Assembly (NCBI GenBank): GCA_964016885.1
Contig: OZ024742.1
Span: 328,848,001 to 328,912,000, forward strand
Direction of reading: 5' to 3'
DNA length: 64,000 nucleotides
DNA from: Eledone cirrhosa
Lineage: Eukaryota
The notes beneath the pieces are model-generated. The model had not been told where the DNA came from, ran no database searches, and saw nothing but the letters and a program-made list of their open reading frames with translations. This document shows, piece by piece, positions 407 to 59,279 of the stretch. The position numbers and the translations under genes were made by a program. Each line of letters starts with the position of its first letter. The stretch's first letter is position 1.

Positions 407-760
407 TAAAATAATGTTACATAATATAATGTTCCATATATTAGTTTTTACTATGGTGCTTTTGTTTCATCAGCTGTCAGCCATAATCAAGCAGTACTCA
501 TCTGTCGAGGCTGCATTGTGTGAGATCTGCCTATGGGTAACAAGATGGCTGCCAAAGGGCATATTTACCTTACTAATAATTAGGGGGTGGTTTCAGGGGA
601 AGTAACTTCTCGAGCGATTAGAGATTGTGTGTATTTTATAGTTAAGTGCTAGTATTTAAATTATTTAATTGAGAGACAATGTAGGGGAGGTAACTTATAA
701 TTATCGAGTTGTTCATAGCAATTTAACTTATTAGCTACAATTAGAGATGGGGCTACATGG

Positions 761-2166
761 CTAAGTTGGGTCAAAAACTCTATTGGCGAAGGAATTAGCC
801 CTTCGATGTTGATAGCTAATGGTTACCTCAGTTCTATCGTTAATTGGTAGAGATCTTGATAGAGTTATGTAATACGCTTCCGTAACACAGAGATCACAGG
901 ATTTCCTTCGTCCATTGAACGGTTGTGCCCTAGCTACGATATCCCATTTTAGTGAGTGTTGAACTTTGTTTAATTTAAGGTTTTTAATGAGCCTAGCTAG
1001 CGATGTCAAACATCTGTTGTTAGGGTCTCGGAAGGAAAAAGAGTGCGCGTTATAGCGTACCTTAAGAGGGTTAGAGGTAGACCCGATGTAAGAGCTGATA
1101 TTAGAAGCAGTCTCAACTGTGCATTTAGACTATGTTGGGTGTCAGGCAGTGTCCATTTAATGGGCATGCATTGGGGTAGCGGCAGTTGCAGTTGCTTCTG
1201 CGGTTAGTGAGAGTAGTGTTATTTAACCTAAGCAGTTGGTCCGTGCTAGAAGGATTAGATGGGGGAGGTGTGCTACTCGAGTAATTATTGGTGTAGTGGC
1301 GTGGTGTATTTGATAGGGGTGGTGGTACCGCGGTGTGGGAGCTATAGTGTCTTAGCTTATGGTGGTTACTGAACGCGATGTGGCTAGCTAGGTTAGGTGT
1401 AGTGGAGAATGAGATTTTAATGTTGTTTTTATTAAATGGTTAGAGGGGAAGTGTTTGGATAGGATAGAGAAGAAGCGATTGGGGATATTAGTGGCTAGAT
1501 TAGATGAGAATGTTGGGTTAAGCCAGGTGATATTTCTAGGCCTATTCTTTCTAGGGGTTCTAGTGGAGTTGGTAGGGGCCTTCCTAGGGTTATTATTACC
1601 TGGGGGTTTGTTATTTGTCATCCCATTTCTCATTCCTATTCTAGGGTTGATTCTTAATTTGCTACTAGGAGTGGGGAGCAGGCCGCTGCCACCATTAAAG
1701 TTCTCTGTATAGGTGCTGTTACTGCTAAAATTCCGGCGAATCTGGCTATATACTAAGGTATTACTAGTTCTAGTGTTAAGTTTATTATGGTGAGTTGCTG
1801 TGTTATGGCATTTTGGTATGTAATAAATTGATTGTTTATAACCAGATTCAGAGAGAGCCTTATTATAATATTGTGCGTGGTTTATAAATATCTCTTCACT
1901 TGCTGATAGCATTGAGATCCTATAGGAGATAGATTTGATTACTGCTCTGATGACTGCCGGTGGGTGGTTAGAGTGTGGGCTAATATATGTGAGTATTTCG
2001 CCTGGTTTATGGTAAGGGTTATAAAGGTTATTGTTGAGATCAAGGGTGACGTCTAGGAAGTTTACTACTTTATGGTTCAGCTCGATGGTGATAGAGAGGC
2101 CGTTATTTTTTAAGAATCTATGAAATTGTTTCTTAAGCAAATCGATTCCCCGATTAGTGCAATTGT
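761..2166 (-). pseudogene. Penelope-like retroelement remnant: RT C-terminus/thumb, NITWLNP linker, Cys linker, GIY-YIG endonuclease (frameshifted)
   Basis: ORF 1388-2140 VNFLDVTLDL..YHKP..SNHPP..; minus strand ~1200-1020 reads NCNCRYPNACPLNGHC and SYIGST; ORF 761-1009 CDLCVTE. Confidence 0.88.
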
Positions 2167-2285
2167 TGGGATTTACCTATTACGTCACATCAGAGCCGAA
2201 ATCCAACCCATGCAAGGTGGAATATACAGGGACGACGCCCTATTTGCAGTCCACAATTGCACTAATCGGGGAATCGATTTGCTTA
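2134..2285 (+). pseudogene. Inverted fragment of the same PLE RT carrying the catalytic GIYRDD motif
   Basis: + frame VGIYLL..GGIYRDDALF..NCTNRGIDLL continues on the minus strand as NCTNRGIDLLKKQF; perfect 33-bp inverted repeat 2134-2166/2253-2285. Confidence 0.85.
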
Positions 2286-2503
2286 CATTACAACTTACAA
2301 TTAAGGACAAAATGAAAACACACACACACATTGAACAAACAACCAACCAGTAACATGTAAACAAACAAATAAATAAACAAATATAAACACACACAGATAC
2401 CCGGATGTAACACATGCGCAAACTAAGCACACAGCATACACAAAAACAAGATGGCGTAGGACAGAACAAAGGAGAGGCACAAAAAAAAATCAAAAAATCT
2501 CCA

Positions 2504-2546
2504 GTCACTGAAGAGGTCACAAAATGTGTGACGAAAGAACTTTGAC
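2504..2546 (+). ncRNA. Minimal type I hammerhead ribozyme motif in a PLE terminal repeat
   Basis: gtca-CTGAAGA-g-gtcaca/tgtgac-GAAA-gaac-TT-tgac; decayed homolog on minus strand at 33513-33555 within a shared ~170-bp repeat. Confidence 0.75.
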
Positions 2547-3499
2547 AATATATGAACAATCGTCTGGCTGTGGAACCAGCCAACCAACCGGAAATTTATA
2601 AATTCCTAAATTTATAAATTTAATTTATAATAAATTGAAGTGAAAGCAACAGATGCGTGTGTTTCTTATTGACAACATGACCCTCCCAAAGTATAACAAT
2701 ATATATATATATATATATAACCACGGTTCAAGCACGGCATTGGAGGTGGAATTATTGTTTTATTTTAAAATGTATCTTTCGCTCGCAATATTTCTTTTAG
2801 TATAAAGCACATTTTTACATATGAATAAAATTCTAGACAAATGAAGCTCTACAGCTTATAGTTTTTAGCCTGAATAGAATTTGAGGTATGTAAGACATAA
2901 TATAACTGAAACAATTTTATTTTAATCTGCTCTTATAATCTACATCACAACATTATTTATGGCCAATAGTGTATTCATTGTAGATAATAAATTGTGAGGT
3001 TTCTTCTTTAAGTCATAATTATTTGATACATACATACGACGATATTTACAATCACGCACCTGCTATATATTCTGATATGTATGAGTGAGTATCTGAATGC
3101 GTGAGTGTGTGTATGTGTATTTGTACCTTGTTAAGCATGCGCATAGGCGGTGTTGGGAGCTGTGTGTGTACGTGTGTGTGCATGTGTGTGCGTGCGTGTG
3201 TGCGTGTGTGTGTGTATATGTATGTGTAGGGTTCTCTTTGTGATTATATTTGATATTAATAATTGAGATTTTATGTAAATGTGTTAATGGTATTAATATT
3301 TTCCTTTTAATAAACATATTTACATATGTTTGCAAATACTTACACACGCACGCATACACAAACCCCTTTTTAATATATACATATTTATATACACAAGTTT
3401 ATACATATAGGTGTATATACATTGTGAATATATGTTCTCTCTCTAATTATATAAATATACATATAATATATATATATACATACATTAATATTATATATA

Positions 3500-4570: not shown

Positions 4571-4602
4571 ATAATAATAATAATAATAACAATAATACTA
4601 AT

Positions 4603-4789
4603 AATTGTTTCTACTTCAGGCACAAGGCCAGCAATTAACCAGTGCATTACTGGTACTTTATTTTATCGACCCCTTAAGGATGAAAGGCAAAGTCAACCTC
4701 GGCGGGATTTGAACACTGATCGTAAAGGGACGTAACTATGCTGGAAAGCATGGCGTCCGACCCTCTACCGATACTGCCAATCCACCGCC
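4603..4789 (-). mobile_element. SINE family A copy
   Basis: Same head and body as 221-406. Confidence 0.88.
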
Positions 4790-4810
4790 CAATCCAATAA
4801 TAATAATAAG

Positions 4811-4992
4811 TGTTTCTACTTTAGGCACAAGGCCAGCAATTACCCAGTGCATTACTGGTACTTTATTTTATCGACCCCGTAAGGATAAAAGGCAAAGTCA
4901 ACCTCGGCGGGATTTGAACTCAGATCGTAAAGGGACGTAACTATGCTGCAAAGCATGGCGTCCGACCCTCTACCGATACTGCCAATCCACCG
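4811..4992 (-). mobile_element. SINE family A copy, tandem with the previous copy
   Basis: Same head and body as 221-406. Confidence 0.88.
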
Positions 4993-6086: not shown

Positions 6087-9000
6087 AGATAAGTTCTCCT
6101 TCATGTTTATTCACTTTCGCCAATCCACCGCTGCTTCAATTATTTCCTACTACGGTGTACTCATGTAAATCGTAAAGTACACATTTTTCTCCTCCATCTA
6201 TTCCACGCTCAATTTTCGTACATAGTCCAAACATCCAATCTCGCAAAATCCGAAATCTGTATCTTTTGTTATCTATTTAAGGTTTAAATACGGTGTTTTT
6301 GTCGTATTGAACAGAACAAATCTTGCAGTTTTGCTTTTTGTTAAATCGCTTGTTAAACATTCATAACCTTCCAGCTAGCTACCCCACACCCCTCCCACCC
6401 GCCCCCACACACCACCATACTTAATACGTGGACCAATCATAAGCCAGAGCCCCCCCCCACGCATCACCATTATTATTATAAGCCAGAGCCCCCCCACCCC
6501 CACGCATCACCATTATTATTATTATTATTATTACGCGGACCAATCATAAGCCAGAGGCCTATACTATCGCTTGCCCGGTTGCCTTCGATATATGATGGAT
6601 GGATGGATGGATGGACTGCGGAATCCTGGAGAGTGGAAGGGAGAGAAAAATCTGGACGCTCAGAGCGAAAATGCCAAAGTTAAAGTCAAATTCACCTCGT
6701 GGACGAGAATGCGAGCACTCCTCTTTGTTTCGTCCGCGGATGGCTAACGTAACCCTATCTCCCCCCGCCCCCCACCACCCCCACCCTCCAAACGCAACCC
6801 AAAACTTCAGAGTTGGTACCATAAATGTGGGCACCCTAAAGGGTCGCGCTAACGAGGTTGTAGAAATGCTTGAACGTAAGGAGGTCGATGTTTGTTGTAT
6901 TCAAGAGACCAGGTGGAGGGGTGGGTCTGCTAGATTCATTGAGGGTAAAAAACGATGTTATAAGCTTTTCTGGGTGGGAAACGACGATGGGCTGGGTGGA
7001 GTAGGAATCATGGTAGCAGAAAAGTGGGCAGATAAGATAATAGACGTAAATAGAGTGAACGACAGAATAATTAAAATAAGACTTGTCCTCAATAAAACTA
7101 CGGTGACAGTAATATCTGCGTACGCACCCCAATCCGGACTGCCCGGCACTATAAAAGACAGATTCTATGAGACATTGTTGCTAACTACCTCCCAAATATC
7201 TGACAGTGACTATATAATTATTGCAGGCGACCTAAATGGTCACGTTGGACAACATTGTGACGGCTACGACGAAATCCATGGAGGCTATGGGTTTGGTACT
7301 AGAAATGAGGGAGGCTCCAGAATCCTGGAATTCTGTGATGCAAATAACCTAACTATCTGTAACACTAACTTCAAAAAACGTGACAATCACCTGATCACCT
7401 ATAGATCAGGGGAACACACAAGCCAGGTAGATTATATCCTTACCAGAAGACGTGACAGAGTGTCTGTTGTAAACACTAAATCCCTCCCCCAGGAAGAATG
7501 CACCTCCCAACATAGACTGATAATTAGCAACCTCATAGTCAGGACGAGACGTACTCGACAGCAGAAGAGGACTATCCTCAGGAGGAAAATATGGAAACTA
7601 AAGGACCCCACAGCCAGAAATAAATTTCAAAGCATATTACTTGATGCTTTCGACAGTAAGGAAGAGCATCTAGAATCGGACAATATAGAGGGACAGTGGG
7701 AATTTCTGAAAGCAAACCTGCTGTTGGCGACAGACGAAGTCTGTGGCTGGAGCAGGCCTGTAGGCAGGAGGAGAGTAACTTGGTGGTGGAACAGTAGGGT
7801 GGAGGGGTCAATTAAGGCCAAAAAGCAGGCTTGGAAAGTATGGCGGGATGGGGGAAGTAGAGTAGACTATCAAGTGGCCAGGAGGGAAGCTAGGAGAGAA
7901 GTGTACTTAGCAAGAAGGGAAGCTGAGGAAAGAAAGTTCAAGCATGTTCTACAACGCGATGACCAAAAACGTGAGGTGTTCAGGATTGCCAGGCAATGCG
8001 TCAAGGAAAACCGTGATATTGTCGGGGAGAAGTGTGTACTTAACGATGACGGCATACTTGCCATCACCGACACTGATAAGAAGGTAGCTTGGAAGTGTCA
8101 CTATGAAAGGCTACTAAATGAGGAGAATAAATGGGAGAAAGACAGTCTCCCCCATATCGACCCGATAGAGGGACCAGCAGTGTTAGTCGAGGGGAGTATA
8201 ATAAGTAAGGCAATCAAGGATATGAAGACGGGTAAGGCGGCTGGGCCTTCGGAAATAGTTGCTGAGATGCTGAAGGCATCTGGCACGGTGGGACACACCA
8301 TGGTCACCCGCATAGTTAACCAAGTCGTACAGAATGGGGTTGTTACGAAGGACTGGCATAGCAGCATCATCGTTAACTGTTATAAGGGTAAAGGAGACGC
8401 CCTAGATAGGAGTAACTATAGAGGCATTAAATTAATCGACCAGGTCATGAAGGTCACGGAAAAAGTAATAGCGCAACTAATCAGAGAGAGAATTGACCTA
8501 GATGAAATGCAGTTCGGGTTTGTGTCAGGCAAAAGCACCACAGACGCCCTTTTCATAGTACGACAACTACAGGAGAAGTACCTAGCTAAAGGTAGACCCC
8601 TCTACTTAGCTTTTGTCGACCTGGAGAAAGCCTTCGACAGAGTCCCCCGCTCCATTATCTGGTGGGCTCTTAGAAAACTAGGCGTTGACGAATGGCTTGT
8701 GAGGGCTATACAAGCCATGTATAAAGAAACAGTCAGCAAGGTTAGAATTAACAGCGAATATAGTGAAGAGTTTAGCGTAAAAGTTGGCGTCCATCAGGGC
8801 TCTGTTCTCAGCCCCCTACTATTTATTATTGCCCTTCAGGCTATAACAGAGGAGTTCAAGACAGGCTGCCCATGGGAACTCCTATACGCAGACGACCTGA
8901 CACTCATAGCGGAATCAATGGCCGAGCTAGAGAAGAAATTCCAAACATGGAAGCACGGCCTAGAGTCAAAAGGACTTAAAATTAACCTGGCTAAGACCAA

Positions 9001-10187
9001 AGTTCTAGTTTGTAGGAAAGAAAACAAGGCGGCGGTCCCTTCTGGGAAATGGTCGTGCTCGGTGTGTAGGAAAGGCGTAGGTAGAAACTTCATTTTATGT
9101 CCTAAATGCAAAGTATGGGTGCATAAAAGATGTAGTGGGATCACAGGTAAGCTAACTAAGAACATAGATTTTACATGTGGCCGGTGTTCTGGTGCAATAA
9201 GTAGCAGCAAGTGCCCACAAAATACTAGCTCTTTCAATTGCGCAGAGGGTTCTATAGAAATAGTAGACAGCTTCCGTTACCTGGGCGATAAAATCAGCAG
9301 TGGAGGAGGGTGCTCTGAAAGTACTGTAGCTAGAGTCAGAACTGGTTGGAAAAAGTTCAGAGAGCTTATAGCACTATTAGCTGCTAAAGGGTTCTCCCTA
9401 AAAATGAAAGGCAGGTTGTACGATGCCTGCATACGAACAGCAATGTTGCATGGTAGTGAGACCTGGGCATTGTGTGCAGAGGATATACGCAGACTAGAGA
9501 GGAACGAAGCTTGCATGCTCCGCTGGATGTGTAACAGTAATATACGTGAACGGCAAAGCATAAACGAACTAAGGAAAAAATTAGAGATAAGAGGGATCAG
9601 ATGTTGTTTACTCGAGAGAAGGTTGCGTTGGTATGGACACGTGATGCGCATGAAAGTCGATAGCTGTATAACAAAGTGCAGGGCAATAAAGATAGACGGT
9701 AGCCACGGAATAGGCAGACCTAGAAAAACATGGGATGAGCTGATAAACTCCGACCTCACACACTTACACCTCTCCAAGACAATGTCACTGGACCGAGACC
9801 TTTGGCGGTACTCAGTAACAGAGAAGACCCGCCTTGCCAGAAGGCATCTCTAACAAAATACACCCCGTCCCGCCACCCCCCCCACCCCATCCACACCACC
9901 CCGTTCTACGTAAAGTTATGTTGGTGCCGCACCATCCAGGCCGAAACAAATGAGATCGTGTAGGTGTCACGACAAAAAAACACACAGTCCACGCTGTAAT
10001 GTGGCCGTGTAGGCAACACGGTAAAAACCTCCCAGACCCACACTGTAAATGTGGTTGGTGTTAGGAAGGGCATCCAACTGTAGAAAACCTGCCAGACAGT
10101 CCTATGCGAGCAAGACAATCACTCTTGCCTCAAGTGGGACTACCCCCGTCCAAACCTATGCAAGCGTGGAACACGGACGTTAAACGT

Positions 10188-15499: not shown

Positions 15500-15568
<69 letters not shown>

Positions 15569-15831
15569 GGAAAAAATGAAACGAAATTTCATTTCTCACT
15601 CTTAGTACGGCTGTTACTGAAATATAAGTATGTATACGTACATACATATATGTATACAGACGTAAAGTAGTATGTATATATATATACATACATGCACACA
15701 TATATATATGTACGTATGGATTTACCGAACATTTATTATAATGCTCGGTTTATTTGTAAATAAACATCCCGAATTAAGCCGAACAGTGTTTAGCAACCGT
15801 AGTTGCCCTTTTGTTCAACACTGACAAAGGA

Positions 15832-15874
15832 ACGATGTACTAGTTTCAAGCTTATTAGCTATCGTCAGCACCGT
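15832..15874 (-). ncRNA. Hammerhead ribozyme (CUGACGA core); mutated copy at 16262-16304
   Basis: Reverse complement of 16678-16720. Confidence 0.8.
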
Positions 15875-16677
15875 ATAACTTCCTGCCAGATGATTGAACG
15901 TCTGAAAGTATATACTTTCCTTATGCATATTAACGGCTGAGAAGCCTAATTTGCATATCGAGTGAGTTTATCGGCCGGGCTCACCGAAAACGATAAATGG
16001 AAAAAATGAAACGAAATTTCATTTCTCACTCTTACTACGGCTGTTACTTAAATATAAGTATGTGTACGTGCATACATATATGTATACAGACGAACAGTAG
16101 TATGTATATATATACATACATGCACACATATATATATATATATGTATGGATTTACCGAACATTTATTCTAATGTTCGGTTTGTTAGTAAACAAACATCCC
16201 GAATTAAGCCGTACATTATTTAGCAATCATCGTTGCCCTTTTGTTCAACTCTGACAAAGGAACGATGTACTAGTTTCAAGTTTATTAGCTATCGTTAGCA
16301 CCGTATACCTTCCTGCCAGATTATTGAAAGTCTGAAAGTATATACGTTCCTTATGCATATTAACAGCCGTACTAAAGTTTATAATAAATGTTCGGTAAAT
16401 CCATACGTACATATATATATATGTGCATGTATATATATATATATATACATACTACTGTACGTCTGTATACATATATGTATGTACGTATAAATACTTATAT
16501 TTAAGTAACAGCCGTAATAAGAGTGAGAAATAAAATTTCGTTTCATTTTTTCAATTCATCGTTTTCGGTGCGCCCGACCGATTAACTCACTCGATATGCA
16601 AATTAGGCTGCTCACCCGTTAATATGCATGAGGAAAGTATATACTTTCAGACGTTCAATCATCTGGCAGGAAGGTAT

Positions 16678-16720
16678 ACGGTGCTGACGATAGCTAATAA
16701 GCTTGAAACTAGTACATCGT
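16678..16720 (+). ncRNA. Hammerhead ribozyme (CUGACGA core)
   Basis: acggtg-CTGACGA-t-agct/agct-t-GAAA-ctag-TA-catcgt; stem I extends via aagg/cctt, ctggca/tgtcag, gttcaa/ttgaac. Confidence 0.82.
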
Positions 16721-18612
16721 TCCTTTGTCAGTGTTGAACAAAAGGGCAACGACGGTTACTAAACACTGTACGGCTTAATTCGGGTTGTTTGTTTACAAAC
16801 AAACTGAGCATTATAATAAATGTTCGGTAAATCCATACGTACATATATATATATGTGTGCATGTATGTTTTATATATACATACTACTGTACGTCTGTATA
16901 TATATATGTATGTACGTGCACATACTTATATATATATATATATATATACAGAGATGGAGAACTTACTCTTTTCTAGTGGCTCACCTTTTGTATTATTAAT
17001 TCTCCAAGAAAAGAATCTGGATTGCTTCGTCCTTTCAGAGGTTATACGGTCTCGTGTGTTTGTAAGGATGTGTGTATGTGCGAGCATGTGTGTTAGCAAA
17101 CGATTTATGTAGTTTCCATGAACTAAATACAACTAACAATGTATTTGCCTAATGTGTCACAACTTTGCGCAATCGATCTACTTATGCCCTAAGTCCCCAT
17201 TCTCCTATTCACTATATAATTGTTGCCGAAAAAATATACGAAAAGCAAGAAAAAAGGAATCCGCAAAAAAGAATGTGCTACGATAAATACATACACTTAA
17301 GAATATATATTTGTTTAGCTGTGTTCACATGCGCCTTTGTCTTCCTTATCTCAAGGGATATTGATTAAACATTCCTATCAAAACTTCTATCTAATGCAAA
17401 CAATTTACACCTGATATATTTTGATATCAATTTCAATCCGCAATTGAAAGTACGTTTGATTAAGTTACCTGATATATAAGTAATAACCACCAAAACCTAG
17501 GAGATTGCAAGCAGTTCAAATTGTGTTAAATACACAATGTGAGAACACAATCCGTATTGAAGATATGTAAGGTTTTTTCTATAAAATCCACTGTAAATCT
17601 ATTGACTGCTACTCAAATCAAAACTGCAATGTTATATCGTTCCGTGGTGAGTTACCAGTTCGTTATTTATGTATAGGAACTGTTCTGGCAGGTAAAACAT
17701 ACGAAAAGTATATATATATTTTGTAGATGCAGCGTGTAAGAGTGGCAAGAACTACTGCATTCTTTGTCCAATACATACTGTATAGAGCTATCTTATGACT
17801 TGGGCCACTTGCTGATGAGTGTAACAGCTTGGTTACGTAAATATTTATTGATATTACGTGATTTTCTGAACATTGAGGATCTAATATCTGCATTAGTGAA
17901 GTTATATTCCACAGAAACGATATTGTACTGGGGTTGAGATTTTTACCTGTCTCTCTGTCAAGGCACAAGCACCGTATCTGCTATTAACTAAATGTGTGCA
18001 CTCTGAACAGCTGATTGCAACTGCATTATTGCAATTCGGCAGATTCACTGAGTGAGCTAAACGTTGGTTGGAAAACGTTGACCAGCTATCTTTGTTATAC
18101 TAGTTGCAGCCCGAGGTTTTCCTTTTGATATACAGAAACAAACATGTTTTTTTTCAAACTTGCACTTAAAATCGCCCCGCCCCCGCAGTGTGGTGGTAAC
18201 TCTCGCTACCTATCTATTTATCTATTTTTCACACAATCTCTGTCTCACTCACTGTATTTTTCCCTTAACAACAACAACAACAACCACCACCTGTCATATC
18301 ATTATAGCAAACGTCTTTTATTAAAGACTGTGTTGCGCTTTTGGACACACTGAAACAGACTCACACAGTAAACAAAAACTCCGTACTCTTTTTATTTGTT
18401 CGCACTTTACACTTTAACTAGTTACAGAATTGGGGAGGTGGAGTAATATTTCCTTCCCTCTATACAGAGAGCGTGACGGACGGAAGGACAGACACTGATC
18501 TTATTATAGTATATATATATATATGTTTGTGTGTTAGAGAGTCAAGGCCCGACGTCGGAGTTCTTGCCATTCCGACCGCAAGTTCATCACACACACACAC
18601 ACACACGCACGC

Positions 18613-25017: not shown

Positions 25018-25180
25018 GAGGGTCGGACGCCTTGCTTTGACGCATAGAGTTACGGCCCTTGCCATTCTGAGTTCAAATCCCGCCGAGGTTAACTTTGCCT
25101 TTCATCCTTACGGGGTCGATAAAATAAAGTACCAGTAATACACTGGGTAATTGTTGGCCTTGTGCCTAAAGTAGAAATAA
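25018..25180 (+). mobile_element. SINE family A copy (5'-truncated), flanked by ttatttattcaaagta
   Basis: Body match; the 16-mer is at 25002-25017 and 25181-25196. Confidence 0.85.
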
Positions 25181-25196
25181 TTATTTATTCAAAGTA

Positions 25197-25381
25197 GGCG
25201 GTGGATTAGCAGTATCGGTGCAGGGTCGGACGCCATGCTTTCCAGCATAGTTACGTCCCTTTACAATCTGAGTTCAAATCACGCCGGGGTTGACTTTGCC
25301 TTTCATCCTTACGGGGTCGATAAAATAAAGTACCAGTAATGCACTGACCAATTGCTGGCCTTGTGCCTAAAGTAGAAACAC
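25197..25381 (+). mobile_element. SINE family A copy (different subtype), flanked by the same 16-mer
   Basis: The 16-mer is at 25181-25196 and 25382-25397. Confidence 0.87.
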
Positions 25382-25756
25382 TTATTTATTCAAAGTAATC
25401 CAACTTATTCTAGAAACGGGGTAAAACAAATATATTCTGGACGCAATCCCGTACACCTTTCTTTATTATAGTTAAGATTTATTCTCATTTCCTAGTTATA
25501 TATTTCGCTGGGATAGACAGCTAGATAATGCACTTTCTAGCCACCTCCTCGGCTCGAGTTCGTCAGATGGTAAAACAATTTCAAACAATTTAAACATTTT
25601 TTTATATGAGCGACCCGCGATATGATTTGTTGGTTATATGCACACCGACTCCTGTATGAACCCTAACGCTCGGACCCAGTTCTTCAGTGTCGACTCCTTG
25701 GGACTCCACATTGCTCTCGATGATCATCTCCAGACATTTCTCCACAGAAAAATCAA

Positions 25757-31472: not shown

Positions 31473-31527
<55 letters not shown>

Positions 31528-32501
31528 GGAATTCCCGATGTATATCGTGAGGGGAAGACAAATAAAAGATGTACTCAATACATTAGTATAGTATAGGCTT
31601 ATTTACATCATGAAATTATTTCTACAGGTCCAGAAATGTTTCATCCGTAAGAAGTTTTAAAAATGTCATCAGGACTTACCTGATGATTTCTTGTTAATGA
31701 AACAGTTCTAATCCTAGTCATTTCTATAATAAATTAAATATACATATCAGTGAGGGGGAGAAATAAAGAAAGCGAGATAGAACAATATCACTGTAATTTA
31801 GTAGATATATAAGTTAACAATGATCAAAGAAAATATGGAAGAAACATATTGTAACTATTTTAAATGTGTGTAAAATGAAATAAGAGGCAGCGAATTGCCA
31901 GAACGCCGGCTAAAGAGTTTTGCGGTATTCCGTCTAGTTCTCTGTGCTTTTTTGAAGTTCAAATCCCGCCGAGGTCAACTTTGACTTTCATCTATTTGAG
32001 GCCGATAAAAAACGTACCAGTCTAGTACTGGAGTCGATTCTTCCTCTGTATCGCTTTCTCACATCCTCTCTGCCACTTTCCCATGCCTGAAGTGGGGATG
32101 GTCTCCGACAGCATTCAAAAACTGCCATAGAAACGTATGCGCCCCTACGACTCTATCATGAGTTACGGACAAAAGGAAAGGAAAATGTAATACACTGATG
32201 ACTTGTGTGAAACGAGTGAGGGCGTGAAAGAAATTTGGGGATTCAAGAATCTTTCTGTGAAATGCTTTAATGAAGGAATTATTTCCTTAACAAGTTAGAT
32301 ACACTTATCATAATCCCCGTCATTTTTGACGGCTACTCAGCTAGTATATACATACACACACATAAACACACACACACACAAATAAACACACACACACAAA
32401 TAAACACACTCACACACACACATATATATATATACATATGTATAGATATATATATACATATAAATATATACATATATATATATATATATACATATATATA
32501 C

Positions 32502-33855: not shown

Positions 33856-33980
33856 ATTATTCAATAATTTTTAACATACTTGACCTCCTTTTCAACACAA
33901 GAGACATATAGAAACATATGTATATATTGCCCATCTAGACATCTACACAACATAATAACCGGCAGACTAACACCCAGAAT

Positions 33981-34417
33981 AATTGTAACTGTAGATCAAA
34001 TAGAACCTGCCCTTTAGATAAAAAATGCTTAACCAAGGATATCATATACTCATGCACAGTCACAACTAGCAACTCTTCTGAAACCTATATAGGCTCTACT
34101 TCAAACTGCTTCAAAACCAGATACAATTCGCACCTCCACTCTTTCAAAAAACACAGTCTAGCCAACTCCACTTCACTATCTAGCTACATATACTATCTAA
34201 AAACTAAAAATAAACCATATACACTTAAATGGGAAGTGATAGGTAACGCGTCATCGTACAAACCACCTAATAAATTTTGTAACGTCTGTCTACTAGAGAC
34301 CCATACTATCATCTTCTCAAACCATAACCTCCTTAATAAAAAAAAAAATCAGAAGTGTTCGCGGCTTGCCAACACCGCTTCCGACACTCCTTCCAAAACT
34401 TTAAACCCAATAGATAA
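33981..34417 (+). pseudogene. PLE Cys linker plus GIY-YIG endonuclease, one frameshift in a poly-A run near 34340
   Basis: NCNCRSNRTCPLDKKCLTKDIIYSCTV..TYIGSTSNCFKTRYNSHLHSF..CNVCLLE. Confidence 0.85.
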
Positions 34418-36152
34418 CAATGTCAGACTTGAACCCATCACCACCTCTAGCAGCAATCATCAGGGGCACACCTTACACCTCATCTCCACACCCATTAATC
34501 CACTTTAAAGCAAATAGTGACATCCTCCTAGTACCTTTTACCTTGGAGATATCCCCATTTACTTCTACATTTGGTATATTGGCCTTCAATTGCTTAGACT
34601 ACATTACACCAATGTAAACATTAAGCACGGAATTGGTTGTGCTAACATTATCCTGTGTATGTAATGCCGTCATTGGATAAATGGAAGATTAAGTAATTAA
34701 TTTATTAACATAAAAGACCTATATAATCAATATGCTGAGTGCAATGAATTATGTACAGGTGATATATGAGTTATAAATACATGTATGGCTTGATGGTCAG
34801 ATCAGTGTCTTTGTAAGTGAGAATTGATCTCTGGACTACCCTAGTGATATTTAACTTTGCCACGCAATCAGTCATGCAATGACCCAGAACTTACCAGGAG
34901 TCATATATAGAAGTGATTCTAATAAGACCCTGCCAGGTCCTGCCGGTTGACTACACTTACAAAGATCATTGATTTGGAGATCTGACTCTTCACGTGGAAT
35001 GTTCGGTGGGGGCACTCTATGATAGAAGGTAATCATCCTAATATGAACACCTTTAGTACTTCTTGATATACTACACTGTAATTTATAGATAAGATACTTA
35101 AATTTAGAAATTGATTATAAACTTATATGATGAGAACTCATTTGAAACACCATTAATGTACTTTAGGATAATAAATTTAGCTATAGAAATCGGCTAGTTA
35201 CCTCCCCTTACGCATTAACTCCCCTTAATCACACACACACTTCCGGAATATAATACAATGTCACCGCTCACAACAAAACCAACCTACTCTATGGAATCGA
35301 ATTAAAGAACGACAAGCTGTGATGTTCTAGCATGGTTCACCAGGCACCCAATGTTGAATCATCGTGGATTGTGAGATGGACATGTAGTCTATAAATTGCG
35401 TTTCCTGGATTGTGAGAGTGGTGGTGTGTACGAGGACAGTGGTGCTGTTTTGCTTCTCATTTGTAATATTTTTGATATTTTTGGTGTTTCTCCACACACG
35501 GGCTTCTATATCGTACAGGTGTGTGTGAATAATGCTTAACCAGTTCAGCCCCCATGATGCTCTTAATTGCCTGCTTTGACTGCTTGTTTTACTTGTAACA
35601 ATCTGCCGCACTATAATCTTGTATAAATAGGACACGCGTGCATGCCACACGTGTGACTATTGCATACACTGGCTACTCCAAACTTTCCTTTTGCTTTATC
35701 TTAGTAGACTGCCAATGTTTTATTTTAATTTTAATTTTAACTTTAATTTTGTCCTTTAATATGACTGTAATCTTTGTATGTAAATTACCATGCTATATTA
35801 TTATAATGGATGTCAACCCATTGTGGGTCAGTATATACATATGTTTCTATATGTCTCTTGTGTTGAAAAGGAGGTCAAGTATGTTAAAAATCACTGAATA
35901 ATTGCTCCGAAGACTTCAAACCTCGGTTTGGAAGAAACAATTGTAAGCAGATAAATGATTTAAACAGAACTTTGTTTCATGTAATCTCTATATAACTGCT
36001 CTGTAAAACAACTGATGTTGTTACATTGAGCTATTTATCTTACTGGTAATAAGATAGTAATAAATTACTGTCTTTCACAATTTAGGCTATAATATATATA
36101 TAACTATAAAAGGTTTTAGTATATACATAACCATAAATAGTATCCTTAATAC

Positions 36153-39883: not shown

Positions 39884-40056
39884 ATATATATATATGTATG
39901 TGCGTGTGAGTGTATATGTATACACATATATATCTCAAAAACTAATTTAATTAAATTAAATTAAGGGAGTCATGTCGAGACATGCGCCATATCCACCGTA
40001 GAATAAGCTCAAAGATTCTAATGAATAGATCCGAGCATTTTATATCAACTAGAAAT

Positions 40057-40095
<39 letters not shown>

Positions 40096-40193
40096 TATAG
40101 ACATAGAATATTCGAAAATATTCTGTATGTTTATAATAAACATTTTGAAGACCTAATCGCTATAGAATAGAATACGTCACGTATTACAATTAG

Positions 40194-40282
40194 ATTCTCG
40201 ATAAAAGCAAGGGAAGTAATCTACGCGTTTCATTCTCGTTAGAAATCATCAGGACTACATATCCAGTGCTTTTATCGAGAAT
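40194..40282 (-). ncRNA. Hammerhead ribozyme, inverted copy
   Basis: Reverse complement of 40397-40485. Confidence 0.87.
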
Positions 40283-40396
40283 GACACAGCTAGAGACTTA
40301 TAGAATTCCAATTTCTAATTTCTGCCGGACCGGCAACCGCTCTTTCAAACCAGTTCCTGTACACAGCTAAGTATTCTATAAGTCTCTAGCTGTGTC

Positions 40397-40485
40397 ATTC
40401 TCGATAAAAGCACTGGATATGTAGTCCTGATGATTTCTAACGAGAATGAAACGCGTAGATTACTTCCCTTGCTTTTATCGAGAAT
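40397..40485 (+). ncRNA. Hammerhead ribozyme, unit 1 (copies at 40707-40795, 41017-41105, 41327-41415)
   Basis: gtagtc-CTGATGA-t-ttct/agaa-t-GAAA-cgcg-TA-gattac within a perfect 16-bp helix attctcgataaaagca/tgcttttatcgagaat; predicted cut after 40457. Confidence 0.9.
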
Positions 40486-41546
40486 CTAATTGTAATACGT
40501 GACGTATTCTATTCTATAGCGATTAGGTCTTCAAAATGTTTATTATAAACATACAGAATATTTTCGAATATTCTATGTCTATATTCACATATATATCGCT
40601 ATTTCAGAGCATTTATTCCAATTTCTAATTTCTGCCGGACCGGCAACCGCTCTTTCAAACCAGTTCCTGTACACAGCTAAGTATTCTATAAGTCTCTAGC
40701 TGTGTCATTCTCGATAAAAGCACTGGATATGTAGTCCTGATGATTTCTAACGAGAATGAAACGCGTAGATTACTTCCCTTGCTTTTATCGAGAATCTAAT
40801 TGTAATACGTGACGTATTCTATTCTATAGCGATTAGGTCTTCAAAATGTTTATTATAAACATACAGAATATTTTCGAATATTCTATGTCTATATTCACAT
40901 ATATATCGCTATTTCAGAGCATTTATTCCAATTTCTAATTTCTGCCGGACCGGCAACCGCTCTTTCAAACCAGTTCCTGTACACAGCTAAGTATTCTATA
41001 AGTCTCTAGCTGTGTCATTCTCGATAAAAGCACTGGATATGTAGTCCTGATGATTTCTAACGAGAATGAAACGCGTAGATTACTTCCCTTGCTTTTATCG
41101 AGAATCTAATTGTAATACGTGACGTATTCTATTCTATAGCGATTAGGTCTTCAAAATGTTTATTATAAACATACAGAATATTTTCGAATATTCTATGTCT
41201 ATACTCACATATATATCGCTATTTCAGAGCATTTATTCCAATTTCTAATTTCTGCCGGACCGGCAACCGCTCTTTCAAACCAGTTCCTGTACACAGCTAA
41301 GTATTCTATAAGTCTCTAGCTGTGTCATTCTCGATAAAAGCACTGGATATGTAGTCCTGATGATTTCTAACGAGAATGAAACGCGTAGATTACTTCCCTT
41401 GCTTTTATCGAGAATCTAATTGTAATACGTGACGTATTCTATTCTATAGCGATTAGGTCTTCAAAATGTTTATTATAAACATACAGAATATTTTCGAATA
41501 TTCTATGTCTATATTCACATATATATCGCTATTTCAGAGCATTTAT

Positions 41547-41603
<57 letters not shown>

Positions 41604-41727
41604 AAATAAACACATGAAACAATCACAGGGAATAATTTGTAAAGTGTGTAATCACACATCTAGGTAGGTAACTAATTAAAGTTTAACTAGAGCTTCAAAT
41701 ATTACCTTTTAAAAAATGATTAATCTT

Positions 41728-41809
41728 CCTTGTATATATTTCATTAAAGAAATATATTTCACCATTAATCGGTAAAGTCACAGTATTCGAATATGGATTT
41801 TCAGCAAGG
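41728..41809 (-). ncRNA. HHR-like motif with long stems II and III and an uncompensated CUGAAAA core
   Basis: ccttg-CTGAAAA-t-ccat..atgg-t-GAAA-tatatttc/gaaatata-TA-caagg. Confidence 0.6.
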
Positions 41810-41850
41810 GAGAAGATTTAACTATCTGTGTTTACACATCACATGCAAAT

Positions 41851-42774
41851 CTGCCAGGAAATGGTATAGAGTATCTGTTCTATCTCTAATGTCAAAGAGT
41901 TAAGGTTAGGTGGATACTGAGTAGTCTCCCTTTAAAAGGGTTTTTTGTACATGCCTGTTTAAGTGTGTGGGGAATGCGTGAATGTGTAAGTATATGTGTG
42001 TGTGTGTGTGAGAGTGTGAAAAGATATGTCTATACGTAAATGTGGGGGATAGATGTTCTCTCGTATTGGAACTGGTCTTTGTGTGTGTGTGAGAGAGGAT
42101 AAGTGGAGGTGTAAGCGTGTGTGTGTTTGTGTGTGTGTGTGTGCGTGTGAGGGGGGAGGGGGTGTAAATATGGGGCTAGATGCACTATCAAGTTATAAAA
42201 TGGGTGTTGAGTTCTAGTATATTATGGATTTGTGGTTGTGTTGTGTCTATAATTAGTGCTTCCTTAATTCTAAGATTGACGAGGTTTCTTTCCTTAGTTT
42301 CTATCCTAACTGTTATGGTTAGAATTAAGAAAGCACTAATTATAGACAAAACACAACCACCAATCAATAATAGACTAGAACTCAACACCCAATTTATAAC
42401 TTGATAGACCATTTAGCCCCGTATTTACCCCCACCCCCTCCCACACACACGCACACACACACACACACGCACACACACACAGACACACACGCTTACACCT
42501 CCACTTATTTTCTCTCACAAACACACATACACACACAAAGACCAGTTCTAACATGAGAGAACATCTATCCCCCACATTTCCGTATAGACATATCTTCTCA
42601 CACTCACACACACACACACACACACACACATGCTTACACATTCACGCATTCTCCCACACACTTAAACAGGCATGTACAAAAAAAACCTTTTAAAGGGAGA
42701 CTATTCTTTATCCACCTAACCTTAACTCTTTGACATTAGAGATAGAACAGATACTCTATACCATTTCCTGTCAG
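41851..42774. mobile_element. Head-to-head pair of 5'-truncated PLE 3' ends (~450-bp arms), each starting in the C-terminus of the GIY-YIG ORF
   Basis: Imperfect palindrome centred near 42310; arms encode LRIKEALIIDTTQPQIHN / RIKKALIIDKTQPPINN. Confidence 0.78.
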
Positions 42775-44095: not shown

Positions 44096-44512
44096 GTCAA
44101 AACAAAATAAATGATAAAAAATAAATGATAACCAGACCTGGACTCCCGGAATTGCTGTTAAAATCCGATGTAAAGTTTCTGTGACACCTAAATCAAAATA
44201 CAGTCTGCTTAAAAATATAAGCTTTGTGTATAACGATCGAACAAGGAATATCACGTTATCAACAAGTATTTCGCTCTGTACCAAATAAGTGAATGACACG
44301 GTGGTAAGTTAAACCACGTCTGGAAATCACAAGGGGAATAACCCCAGATTTTGGCAAAGTAATTCAGTTAGAGTAAATCATGCGAAAAATAGCATAAATA
44401 GCACAAATCAAACATAGTGGTGGAACACTGGAAGGTAATATCCGTAGTGATAAAGAACTTTGTGTTGGTTAACCGACACAAAGTTAAACTAGGATAATCC
44501 TGCGCTAAGAAC

Positions 44513-44998
44513 ATGAAGGCCCACATCACCAGCAGCCCTAGGAGCAACAACCCACCAGGGTACTCTTGCAGTAAGCCTGAAGCTTGCCCCCTTCAACAGC
44601 AATTCAACACACCAGCTGTAATTTATGAAGCTGTGGTCACTTCCAACCGACCAAACCAACCACAGGAGGTCAAATCCTATGTGGGCATGTCGGAGGGCCG
44701 ATTTAAGGAACGCTTGCTGAACCACCAGTCTACCTTCAGGTACCCAGGCAGACGTTCATCCACGAAACTCGCGAGCCACGTATGGTACCTCAAGGCCTCA
44801 AGTATAGACTACTCCATTCAATGGAAAGCCATCACTAAGTCCAAGATATACGCAAGGGGAAATACGACGTGTTGCTTATGTATTGACGAACGAATAATTA
44901 TTCTAAAGCGATTACGCAACAATGATTGCCTAAACACGAGAAATGAATTTTCCACACGTTGTCCACACGTCGCCAAACACCTTATGCATAACTACTAG
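44513..44998 (+). CDS. PLE GIY-YIG endonuclease domain (open frame, RT absent)
   Basis: SCSKPEACPL..VIYEAVV..SYVGMSEGRFKERLLNHQSTF..CCLCIDE..RCPH; upstream NRHKVKLG*SC; degenerate HHR at 45173-45211. Confidence 0.75.
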   Translation: MKAHITSSPRSNNPPGYSCSKPEACPLQQQFNTPAVIYEAVVTSNRPNQPQEVKSYVGMSEGRFKERLLNHQSTFRYPGRRSSTKLASHVWYLKASSIDYSIQWKAITKSKIYARGNTTCCLCIDERIIILKRLRNNDCLNTRNEFSTRCPHVAKHLMHNY

Positions 44999-48314: not shown

Positions 48315-48378
48315 GTAATTCCGTAGGAAAAGTCCAGGAAAAAAGAGTGCTCTATGTATATATGTATATATACCATCT

Positions 48379-48900
48379 ATGAAGTCCAAAATCACCAGTT
48401 CAAACCATACGAGAATAAATCCAGGATGCAGTTGCAGGAAGCCGGAAGAATGCCCATTGCAGGAGGATAAATGTAACACCAAATCTGTTGTTTATGAGGC
48501 TAAGATAACACCGGTAATCAACAACCAGCCAGTCCGGAGTGAGCGATATGTCGGTATGACCCAGGACAGATTTAAAACCAGATTTTACTCACATGTCGCC
48601 TCTTTTAAGCACTCCGATAAACGAACATCAACGGCCCTCGCAAGTAAGGTGTGGGAACTCAAGGATAGTAACATCCCGTACTCTATTGATTGGTCTATAT
48701 TAGACCGTTCGAGGGAGTACCAAAGGGGCACAAAGAATTGTTCTTTGTGTACCACAGAAAAGTATAGGATTTTGCTAAACTTGAGAGCCACTTCCGCTTG
48801 CCTTAACTCAAAGACTGAGATCTTCAGATGCTGTCCTCATCTGAAATCGCATCTGATCTGTAACTGGATTGACACTCCTATGATAAATCAACCGCCTTGA
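48379..48900 (+). CDS. PLE GIY-YIG endonuclease domain (open frame, RT absent)
   Basis: GCSCRKPEECPL..VVYEAKI..RYVGMTQDRFKTRFYSHVASF..CSLCTTE..CCPH. Confidence 0.78.
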   Translation: MKSKITSSNHTRINPGCSCRKPEECPLQEDKCNTKSVVYEAKITPVINNQPVRSERYVGMTQDRFKTRFYSHVASFKHSDKRTSTALASKVWELKDSNIPYSIDWSILDRSREYQRGTKNCSLCTTEKYRILLNLRATSACLNSKTEIFRCCPHLKSHLICNWIDTPMINQPP

Positions 48901-58002: not shown

Positions 58003-59279
58003 CTAGCATTAATACCGGCGTTGCTCGGGGTCAGTAAGTTACCAAAGTTAGGTTGCACCACCTATTTTATGGCAGCACTTTGTTGTCTGCCAGGCACTGG
58101 GTGAATGAATTGCAGACCTGGACTACCGAAGCAGGAGCTGCGCCAGCAGTGACAATTGTAGTTTCGCCTATGGATATTATCTCTGTGCAAAGAAGCGTTG
58201 AAATGTATTGTTTCACAGTACTTGCGCAACACACGCGTAGACGATGCCAGCCGAACAACAGAGCTGCGATGGAGTTGTTCTGCATGGTTGTTTAATGTGT
58301 GTTTTCTAAATTTAAGTTAGTAGGGAGTGGTGTGATTGGGGGGAGAGTTAGCTGCTGTTTCTAGCAGGTTTAGTGACCTCATAGAGGATATGTTTTCTAA
58401 ATTTAAGACAGTAGGGAGTGGTGTGATTGGGTGGACAGTTAGCTGCTGTTTCTAGCAGGTTTAGTGACCTCATAGAGGATATGTTTTCTAAATTTAAGAC
58501 AGTAGGGAGTGGTGTGATATGGGGGAGAGTTAGCTGCTGTTTCTAGCAGGTTTAGTGACCTCATAGAAGATATGTTTTCTAAATTTAAAACAGTAGGGAG
58601 TGGTGTGATTGGGGGGAGAGTTAGCTGCTGTTTCTAGCAGGTTTAGTAACCTCATAGAGGATATGTTTTCTAAATTTAAGACAGTAGCGAGGGGTGTGAT
58701 ATGGGGGAGAGTTATCTGCTGTTTCTAGCAGGTTTAGTGACCTCATAGAGTATATTATTGTGTATAGTAAATAAACTGATACTTCTTTCTTCCACGTTCG
58801 TTGAGAGGTTTTAAAAAAGATTTATCGCTATTTTTGTTGTTGTTGAATAAATTTATCTGTTGTTTTTGAATAATTGTTGTTTCGTATGAAATGTAATAAG
58901 TTCTCTTTGTCATTGAAGCAAATAAATGTTTGACCGTTCCACACTCAAAAACAAACGTTCTCTCTCTCCCCTCTCTCTCTTCCGCGTTCCTAAAGGAAGT
59001 TTGTAAGCATGTATGTAGTGTTATTGAAGTTTAAGGCGAGTAGAGAGAGGTTATCAGATTCTATTAGAGGGGTAAAGCGTCATGTATTTAGTTTTATCGA
59101 TTATTTCCATAATTCTGGGGGAGTTTCAATGAGATTAATAATCGTTGACCTAAATTAGATCATTTACAACATTCTTACAGACGTTGAGTCGAATCGGTTT
59201 GAAATTGTGCAAATGTATAAACATGGAACATGCAAACAGACACACACAACAACAACAATCTGCCTTTTATAGATAAGGA
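58003..59279 (-). mobile_element. Non-autonomous Helitron-like element containing a minisatellite
   Basis: Minus strand starts TC after A and ends in ccgagcaacgccgg..CTAG before T. Confidence 0.6.
58300..58752. repeat. Five tandem 91-bp units
   Basis: tgttttctaaatttaa at 58300, 58391, 58482, 58573, 58664. Confidence 0.95.

What the first reader, a model, noticed from the sequence alone, without database searches (positions are those of the whole stretch)
40092..41551. Candidate retrozyme: four near-identical 310-bp hammerhead units plus an inverted copy inserted in (TA)n
Seen: exact 310-bp period, one visible substitution in about 1.2 kb, no ORF, and one canonical HHR per unit (CUGAUGA, GAAA, GUA site, palindromic ACGCGT) clamped by a perfect 16-bp helix. 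A ~215-bp inverted copy with a fifth HHR precedes the array and the last unit runs ~35 bp past the end point of the inverted copy. Established: non-autonomous metazoan retrozymes are tandem repeats of a few hundred bp with type I HHRs that yield small linear and circular RNAs and are thought to use PLE machinery; minimal HHRs cleave as dimers, which tandem copies allow. Inference: a very recent insertion copied by rolling reverse transcription of a 310-nt circular RNA; a transcript would release three monomers (cuts after 40457, 40767, 41077, 41387).
Basis: partly seen in the sequence, partly recalled or inferred. Interest (0 to 1): 0.9.

Follow-up and report, generated by a model that had tools for sequence, protein, structure and literature searches.

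The report
Two-armed hammerhead retrozyme with Penelope ends
This is one of an estimated 1,600-1,900 young copies of a protein-free jumping repeat whose 310-base units each carry a predicted self-cutting RNA, and whose fixed ends and uniform arrays suggest it is likely pasted into TA repeats by Penelope-type enzymes copying round a small RNA circle from two sides.

Summary
Observation confirmed almost to the base. The array is one insertion of a very young family: 16,909 hammerheads genome-wide, about 1,600-1,900 insertions. Of 91 insertions read (819 units), 76 have two full arms; all 76 are head-to-head with one outer end at unit 126-139 and the other at 160-172, running into (TA)n. That is the inverted-copy-plus-30-40-bp-tail signature of Penelope-like elements (PLEs). 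Each array carries its own variants in all units of both arms, so it was likely copied from one unit: a circle fits best. Fixed ribozyme changes keep the fold (10 of 10, against 1 of 16 singletons), and an older sister family covaries at core C3-G8/U3-A8. Against a pure monomer circle: 3 arrays share variants at the same rank in both arms. No RNA data, no cleavage test, no autonomous partner found. Verdict: a non-LTR retrozyme whose anatomy makes the proposed circle-plus-PLE mechanism directly testable.

The parts
40059..40091 (.). (TA)n target, left flank
40092..40306 (-). Inverted arm, 215 bp, unit 226>310,1>130; outer end is the 'short' end (130); 2-bp AT overlap with the direct arm
40194..40282 (-). 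Fifth ribozyme domain (clamp, stem I, core); predicted cut after 40222
40305..41552 (+). Direct arm, 4.03 units, 5'-truncated at unit 158, outer end is the 'long' end (165)
40397..40485 (+). Type I hammerhead domain 1: 16-bp clamp 40397-40412/40470-40485, stem I, core at 40427, palindromic ACGCGU stem III, predicted cut after 40457
40458..40767 (+). Monomer 1, cut to cut (unit numbering 1-310 used in this report); predicted circle
   Evidence: z -3.9; 1 of 100 shuffles as good
40589..40596 (+). Internal AT run (unit 132-139), the zone where short ends fall; likely anneals to the (TA)n primer
40707..40795 (+). Hammerhead domain 2, predicted cut after 40767
40768..41077 (+). Monomer 2
41017..41105 (+). 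Hammerhead domain 3, predicted cut after 41077
41078..41387 (+). Monomer 3, with the single substitution at 41204 (unit T127C)
41327..41415 (+). Hammerhead domain 4, predicted cut after 41387
41518..41552 (+). 35-bp PLE-type tail (unit 131-165) present at this end only
   Evidence: tail described in PMC8557442
41553..41600 (.). (TA)n target, right flank

Best explanation
The locus is one insertion of a young, protein-free, two-armed tandem-repeat family, whose RNA is predicted to cut itself at hammerheads into 310-nt units that likely close into circles and are likely copied into (TA)n by a Penelope-like reverse transcriptase-endonuclease working from both sides of the cut target. Shown: dispersed family, head-to-head arms, two fixed outer-end zones about 35 nt apart, (TA)n flanks, scattered inner ends, array-wide private variants, selection on the ribozyme fold. 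Inferred: read-through transcription; cleavage as dimers through the ACGCGU palindrome; ligation by a host ligase; a GIY-YIG cut in (TA)n giving two 3' ends, one priming at the internal AT run (unit 126-139) and the other at 160-172 by 1-3 nt of microhomology; each cDNA rolling round the circle for 0.2 to more than 40 turns; the two cDNAs joined at their ends by microhomology. The 35-bp tail is then simply the offset between the two priming sites on a circular template.
For: 16,909 hammerheads, reversed-pattern control 0; 808 forward long-end/TA junctions. 76 of 76 two-armed insertions among 91 read have one short and one long end, 44 versus 32 by side; 17 of 17 two-armed arrays picked by the short end alone also had the long end; all 17 hammerhead-bearing loci listed for C1 0.5-31 Mb, picked without regard to ends, have their 3' ends in these two zones. 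128 of 129 outer ends run into an AT/TA run. 119 of 129 arms cross the cleavage site, 612 crossings; 1 of 152 inner ends lies at unit 1-5; no 1-nt insertion at the cut anywhere in the genome: so not a cleaved linear monomer. Variants fixed in every unit of both arms: 27 variant-by-background events beside the five backbone changes, for example C210A in 18 units, del51-52 in 22; 10 arrays of 8-18 units have no internal variant at all; 93 singletons against 19 intermediate variants. Fixed ribozyme substitutions keep the fold 10 of 10, clean singletons 1 of 16 (p = 2e-6). Sister family B (68% alike, same two end zones) covaries: core 3-8 pair CG 25, UA 15, UG 3 of 46; 42 doubly changed cells against 13.4 in shuffles. 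PLE signature as described in PMC8557442; circle model proposed in PMC4209133 and PMC7229834.
Against: Three of 75 two-armed arrays share non-fixed variants at the same rank from the outer end in both arms (L070 C204T, L224 T173C, L238 with two outer units of one haplotype then another), against about 52 unshared: independent rolling on one monomer circle cannot give that; a linear multimer, or later conversion, can. Long arrays show repeated variants (L051, L053, L054, L076), so local shuffling also happens. Inner ends are not quite uniform (Rayleigh p = 0.04). The window's own haplotype has a U.U closing stem II and a 2-bp stem III, and may cut poorly; 8 of 9 predicted Xenopus retrozymes did not cut in vitro (bioRxiv 2026.07.22.740005). 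No autonomous partner was found. Most loci were picked by an end pattern and all but the window lie in the first 147 Mb of contig C1.
Confidence: 0.68

Rival explanations
1. Same PLE two-ended integration, but the template is an uncut linear multimer transcribed from a donor array; the hammerhead cuts rarely or only trims ends.
For: Three arrays share variants at the same rank in both arms; weak-looking ribozyme; no pile-up at the cut is expected here too.
Against: Needs donors already uniform for private variants over as many as 18-22 units and gives no way to reach arms of 27-46 units; about 52 variants in ranks covered by both arms are unshared; A276G is all-or-nearly-all within arrays and never a singleton among 819 units.
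Confidence: 0.17
2. PLE machinery inserts one to two units per arm; arrays then grow in place by unequal crossing-over, as proposed for vertebrate retrozymes in bioRxiv 2026.07.22.740005.
For: Repeated variants inside long arrays (L053 A201T seven units apart; L076 aperiodic mix).
Against: The most uniform arrays are already long; variant load does not rise with length (Spearman -0.03, n = 59); singletons dominate; older subfamilies (L192, family B) have short arms; arms longer than one unit need a multimer or circle to begin with.
Confidence: 0.08
3. DNA-level spread (extrachromosomal DNA circles, fold-back repair) with the hammerhead a passenger.
For: Palindromic tandem arrays can arise from DNA repair; no RNA evidence is in hand.
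Against: Two fixed end zones, (TA)n targeting, strand-specific selection on RNA pairing and covariation; the fold-back rule short arm <= long arm fails (40 of 75).
Confidence: 0.05
4. Assembly artefact or unique local duplication.
For: One locus (L061) looks doubled beside an N run; unit numbers are unverified by reads.
Against: Same anatomy at 76 loci with locus-specific haplotypes; 639 contigs of run X3 lie on the unit, with loose ends running into TA at 40596.
Confidence: 0.02

Closest known systems
Metazoan non-LTR retrozymes (coral, mussel, axolotl; PMC7229834, passages read)
   Same: Tandem units of 150-450 bp, low GC, one type I hammerhead per unit, no ORF, thousands of copies; short helix III as in amphibian motifs that cut as dimers.
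   Different: The paper has 0 occurrences of 'inverted', 'microsatellite' or 'octopus' and leaves priming and the mobilising enzyme open; here arms, two fixed ends, tail and target are resolved. There RNA circles and cleavage were shown; here they are not.
Penelope-like elements with endonuclease (Penelope/Poseidon, Neptune, Naiad; PMC8557442, passages read)
   Same: Partial tandems, adjacent inverted 5'-truncated copy, 30-40 bp tail at either end, microsatellite bias, hammerhead in the terminal repeat (not in Naiads).
   Different: No ORF; up to about 46 units per arm; no sequence match to the PLE families sampled here.
PLE minimal hammerheads (PMC4209133, parts 1-2 of 4 read)
   Same: Palindromic helix III, extra base after position 9, and the U3-A8 core covariation (seen in sister family B); the paper tentatively proposes circular templates for more-than-unit copying.
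   Different: Family A lacks the G10.1-C11.1 pair (U.U, or A-U in 14 arrays) and has a long clamp extending helix I.
Vertebrate retrozymes as PLE derivatives (bioRxiv 2026.07.22.740005, parts 1-3 of 5 read)
   Same: Non-autonomous, PLE-linked tandem hammerhead repeats.
   Different: Link rests on co-occurrence and terminal-repeat trees, and arrays are proposed to grow locally; 0 occurrences of 'tail' or 'head-to-head'. Here arrays look born long.
Non-autonomous Chlamys elements such as MRC1 (PMC8557442)
   Same: Non-autonomous PLE passengers with multicopy head-to-tail insertions.
   Different: That clade lacks canonical hammerheads and shares 3' ends with its autonomous partners; no partner found here.
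LINE-1 twin priming (recalled)
   Same: Two target 3' ends prime, giving an inverted 5' segment with microhomology at the junction.
   Different: In L1 the second primer lands at a variable internal site next to where the first cDNA stops; here both primers use fixed sites 35 nt apart and the inner ends are unrelated to them.

Membership tests
Non-LTR retrozyme | Tandem units of about 150-450 bp, GC under 50% | tested here: met
   310 bp; GC 0.32 over 40001-42000
Non-LTR retrozyme | One type I hammerhead per unit | tested here: met
   Core and stems in every unit; selection on the fold; covariation in sister family. Rfam models do not detect it
Non-LTR retrozyme | No protein coded | tested here: met
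   Longest ATG ORF 30 aa in six frames of the trimer
Non-LTR retrozyme | Dispersed, mobile family | tested here: met
   16,909 motifs; 91 separate insertions read
Non-LTR retrozyme | No LTR, PBS or PPT | not tested
   No terminal direct repeats beyond the units are visible; no tRNA-primer search was run
Non-LTR retrozyme | Target-site duplication longer than 4 bp when present | tested here: inconclusive
   Flanks are TA-type repeats on both sides
Non-LTR retrozyme | Self-cleavage | not testable with these tools
   Needs in vitro transcription
Non-LTR retrozyme | Linear and circular monomer RNA in tissues | not testable with these tools
   No RNA holder listed
PLE-type integration product | Inverted 5'-truncated copy next to the tandem | tested here: met
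   76 of 91 insertions two-armed head-to-head; 15 one-armed or open-ended
PLE-type integration product | 30-40 bp tail at one end, either side | tested here: met
   Offset 26-45, mode 35 (22 of 59; the 26s are ambiguous inside the AT run)
PLE-type integration product | Microsatellite insertion bias | tested here: met
   128 of 129 ends; most of these loci were picked by a TA-junction pattern, but the 11 picked by hammerhead alone agree
Autonomous PLE | RT plus GIY-YIG ORF | tested here: not met
   No ORF; non-autonomous
Derivative of a named PLE family | Terminal repeat shared with an autonomous element | tested here: inconclusive
   No match to units A or B in 40 loci of one PLE family beyond a 28-bp hammerhead stem or in 30 loci of a related hammerhead family; 33,482 PLE-RT candidates exist, 150 scored

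The most novel reading that the evidence does not exclude
A 310-nt ribozyme circle is copied by a PLE enzyme from two fixed sites 35 nt apart at once, which explains the tandem, inverted and tail features of all endonuclease-bearing PLEs as products of a circular template; and the circle is A-to-I edited before copying, so that RNA edits are written into the genome array by array (A276G, a UAG in stem I: 809 of about 16,900 units, on five haplotype backgrounds, all-or-nearly-all within arrays).
Probability: 0.3. Interest if true: 0.87.

Novelty: new variant of a known kind. Interest (0 to 1): 0.66.

Why it matters
How PLEs make tandem and inverted copies with a tail is named as an open problem in PMC8557442, and copying of retrozyme circles by PLE enzymes has been a proposal since PMC4209133 and PMC7229834. 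This family gives well over a thousand nearly unmutated integration products of a 310-nt substrate, with base-level priming sites, a defined target and a built-in record of template identity. It supplies a minimal substrate for a PLE in vitro assay, about 5 Mb (0.17%) of long perfect palindromes in the genome, and possibly a case of RNA edits entering DNA.

Tried and rejected
Rfam: no family at gathering or E <= 10 except a chance microRNA match. DNA search of the unit in G000 was empty because common words are skipped; patterns worked. RNA evidence: no RNA holder listed; 4 of the 6 listed runs were laid: X1, X2 and X6 hold a contig that goes back 310 with no other letters, X3 holds 639 contigs; run kinds are not on record and tandem DNA gives the same joint, so this is used neither for nor against expression. 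Ligation scar: the 311-bp variants carry their extra base two positions past the cut, inside stem I, not at the cut; rejected as a scar. Fold-back copying of one arm from the other: short arm <= long arm in only 40 of 75. 'Short end primes first': one-armed cases were 8-9 short to 1 long in the pattern-picked set, but the unbiased set had 2 short, 1 ending at 160, 1 long with inverted scraps, 1 at an N run; not claimed. Partner search: loose-end motif led to non-autonomous family B; the window's own PLE family, the PLE in L087 and hammerhead family C have other ends. Pfam does not name the 727-aa PLE-like ORF; its RT and GIY-YIG motifs are read by eye. Dropped rows: L191 and L192 (older 312-bp subfamily), the first copy in L061, the overlap of L052 with L053, L241 for end tallies; 21 of 37 singleton substitutions came from truncated junction domains (with them 5 of 37 keep the fold, p = 6e-7). 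Earlier findings: three look-ups empty. Lunse 2017 was not held (title seen in a reference list only). Supplements were not read; those of PMC7229834 and the 2026 preprint may list related families or show inverted copies. Not-in-print claim rests on searches only.

Full report
OBSERVATION. The direct arm spans 40305-41552 with period 310 and one substitution at 41204; an exact 215-bp inverted copy lies at 40092-40306; five hammerhead cores and the four predicted cuts are where stated; there is no ORF over 30 aa from an ATG. The ribozyme domain folds far better than shuffles (z -6.4). It is a minimal type I motif: stem I of 6 bp extended by a 16-bp clamp, stem II of 4 bp closed by U.U, stem III a palindromic ACGCGU stub. 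Rfam does not detect it. Units are numbered from the cut (1 = 40458).

A YOUNG, ABUNDANT FAMILY. The exact 43-nt motif has 4,033 matches in the 3.0-Gb genome, a degenerate version 16,909, reversed controls 0. Long-end/TA junctions number 808 on the forward strand (the reverse count is inflated by overlapping matches). Both routes give about 1,600-1,900 insertions, roughly 5 Mb. I read 91 insertions, 819 units: the window, 10 picked by hammerhead alone, 79 picked by an end pattern and 1 more from the hammerhead list, all but the window on the first 147 Mb of contig C1. Singleton variants run at 0.37 per kb.

ANATOMY. 76 of 91 insertions have two arms, always head-to-head with 3' ends outward; all 76 have one end in the short zone and one in the long zone, on either side (44 and 32). 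In the first 70, short ends fall at 126-139 (130 in 37, 139 in 19 of 68), at an internal AT run, and long ends at 163-172 (165 in 41 of 61), where 1-3 bases match TA; 128 of 129 ends run into an AT/TA run. Selection does not make this: 17 of 17 two-armed arrays picked by the short end alone had a long end, and the 17 loci listed by hammerhead alone for C1 0.5-31 Mb comprise 12 two-armed short-plus-long cases, 2 short-only, 1 ending at 160, 1 long arm with inverted scraps and 1 at an N run. Inner 5' ends scatter over the unit with 0-6 bp overlaps in most cases; 1 of 152 lies at 1-5, with a mild excess in the first 120 bases (p = 0.04). Partial tandem, adjacent inverted truncated copy, 30-40 bp tail at either end and microsatellite bias are the PLE signature as described in PMC8557442 (passages).

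TEMPLATE. Arms cross the cut 612 times in 129 arms; 612 of 655 junctions are unchanged and the rest are array-wide stem I variants or singletons; a 1-nt insertion at the cut has 0 matches genome-wide. A cleaved linear monomer, with or without end-to-end jumping, is thus unlikely. Arrays differ from each other but are uniform within: besides five backbone changes there are 27 variant-by-background events fixed in every unit of both arms, and 10 arrays of 8-18 units have no internal variant. Variant load does not rise with array length and older relatives have shorter arms, against growth in place. One unit as template, read many times, fits a circle. Against it: L070, L224 and L238 share non-fixed variants at the same rank in both arms, against about 52 unshared; L080 and L076 are mosaics. 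A minority of linear multimer templates or later conversion must be allowed.

THE RIBOZYME IS UNDER SELECTION. Array-wide substitutions in the domain keep core and pairing in 10 of 10 cases (free position 7, loop 2, G.U or Watson-Crick swaps, and U.U to A-U at the base of stem II), where 30% of all possible changes would; clean singletons do so in 1 of 16. A loose end led to family B, a colinear 317-bp relative about 68% alike, 2,487 candidate places, same two end zones, arms of two units or fewer. In 46 B sequences 96.8% of cells pair; the core 3-8 pair is CG in 25, UA in 15, UG in 3; stem II and the clamp change on both sides; 42 doubly changed cells against 13.4 in shuffles, and slid controls collapse (relatedness inflates cell counts, and pair-level counts were not significant, 69 of 500). 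The U3-A8 covariation is known from PLE hammerheads (PMC4209133). A and B have different clamp sequences that both pair fully.

MECHANISM. Shown: geometry, target, uniformity, selection. Inferred: read-through RNA is cut by dimeric hammerheads (dimers by the palindromic helix III, PMC4209133 and PMC7229834), closed by a host ligase, bound by a PLE protein; the endonuclease opens (TA)n; one 3' end pairs with the internal AT run and primes at about 130, the other primes at about 165; both roll round the circle; the cDNA ends join by microhomology. A + strand transcript of this locus would give three monomers. The genome holds many PLE-like ORFs (33,482 candidates, open frames to 727 aa), but no partner sharing the ends was found; since A and B have evolved as units for a long time, the partner may share only short motifs.

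POSSIBLE RNA EDITING. A>G makes up 10 of 23 fixed substitution events but 5 of 74 singletons (p = 1e-4). This is confounded, because A>G in a stem leaves a tolerated G.U. But A276G, at a UAG in stem I (a preferred ADAR triplet, recalled), is in 809 units, on all four backgrounds covered by the pattern plus a fifth in L242, fills arrays wholly or nearly so, has a one- or four-unit gap in 3 of the 13 arrays listed, and is never a singleton in my sample. Three other UAG sites show no such change. Repeated reading of one inosine on a circle would give this; recurrent mutation with selection or short conversion tracts are rivals. About even odds.

COMPARISON AND VERDICT. It works like, and meets every sequence-level test of, a metazoan non-LTR retrozyme; cleavage and circular RNA are untested. 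Its ends are those of a PLE product. In the retrozyme papers read (PMC7229834 passages, PMC7761336 passages, PMC4209133 parts 1-2 of 4, bioRxiv 2026.07.22.740005 parts 1-3 of 5) the circle-plus-PLE route is a proposal and two-armed insertions with tails are not described; searches showed no cephalopod case; supplements were not read. New variant of a known kind, valuable as a test system. Interest 0.66.

Noticed in passing
window 15563-16934: A second, older hammerhead tandem element: 430-bp unit, head-to-head arms (1.9 units minus, 1.3 plus), 92-93% alike, palindromic ACTAGT stem III, beside (TA)n.
   Followed up: partly
window 31525-31750: Two opposed minimal hammerhead motifs (- 31672, + 31680) next to (TA)n; resembles family C, PLE-type ends with U.U at the base of stem II (173 matches to a tight pattern).
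   Followed up: partly
window 41851-42774: About 900-bp fold-back element (arms 89-95% complementary) 250 bp right of the array; no hammerhead seen by the motif scan.
   Followed up: no
window 407-2285 (-), 33939-34508, 44498-44998, 48319-48900: Remnants of several PLE families with a Cys-rich linker and C-terminal GIY-YIG-like domain; the first belongs to a family with open frames up to 727 aa, some head-to-head (L181).
   Followed up: partly
window 2434-2720: Another hammerhead-bearing PLE-type end (core at 2508) running into (TA)n; the same end flanks family A insertions L042 and L048, so these elements nest in each other's TA runs.
   Followed up: partly
window 6596-9853 (+): Unbroken 1,085-aa frame with AP endonuclease, RT and PHD finger, a young non-LTR retrotransposon.
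   Followed up: no
L054 2599-2870: 272 bp of unrelated GC-rich sequence captured between the two arms, suggesting a template switch to another RNA.
   Followed up: no
L076/L077 (G000:C1:97.46-97.48 Mb): Arm of about 46 units with an aperiodic mix of G81A+T84A and A113G units.
   Followed up: partly
L238: Both arms switch haplotype at the same rank (two outer units of one type, inner units of another) without a seam.
   Followed up: partly
L087 3780-7500: A symmetric head-to-head PLE insertion of another family, both arms carrying the endonuclease part.
   Followed up: partly
window 4590-4992, 25019-25397, 58300-58755: SINE-like dimers of 205 and 201 bp and a 91-bp five-copy array.
   Followed up: no
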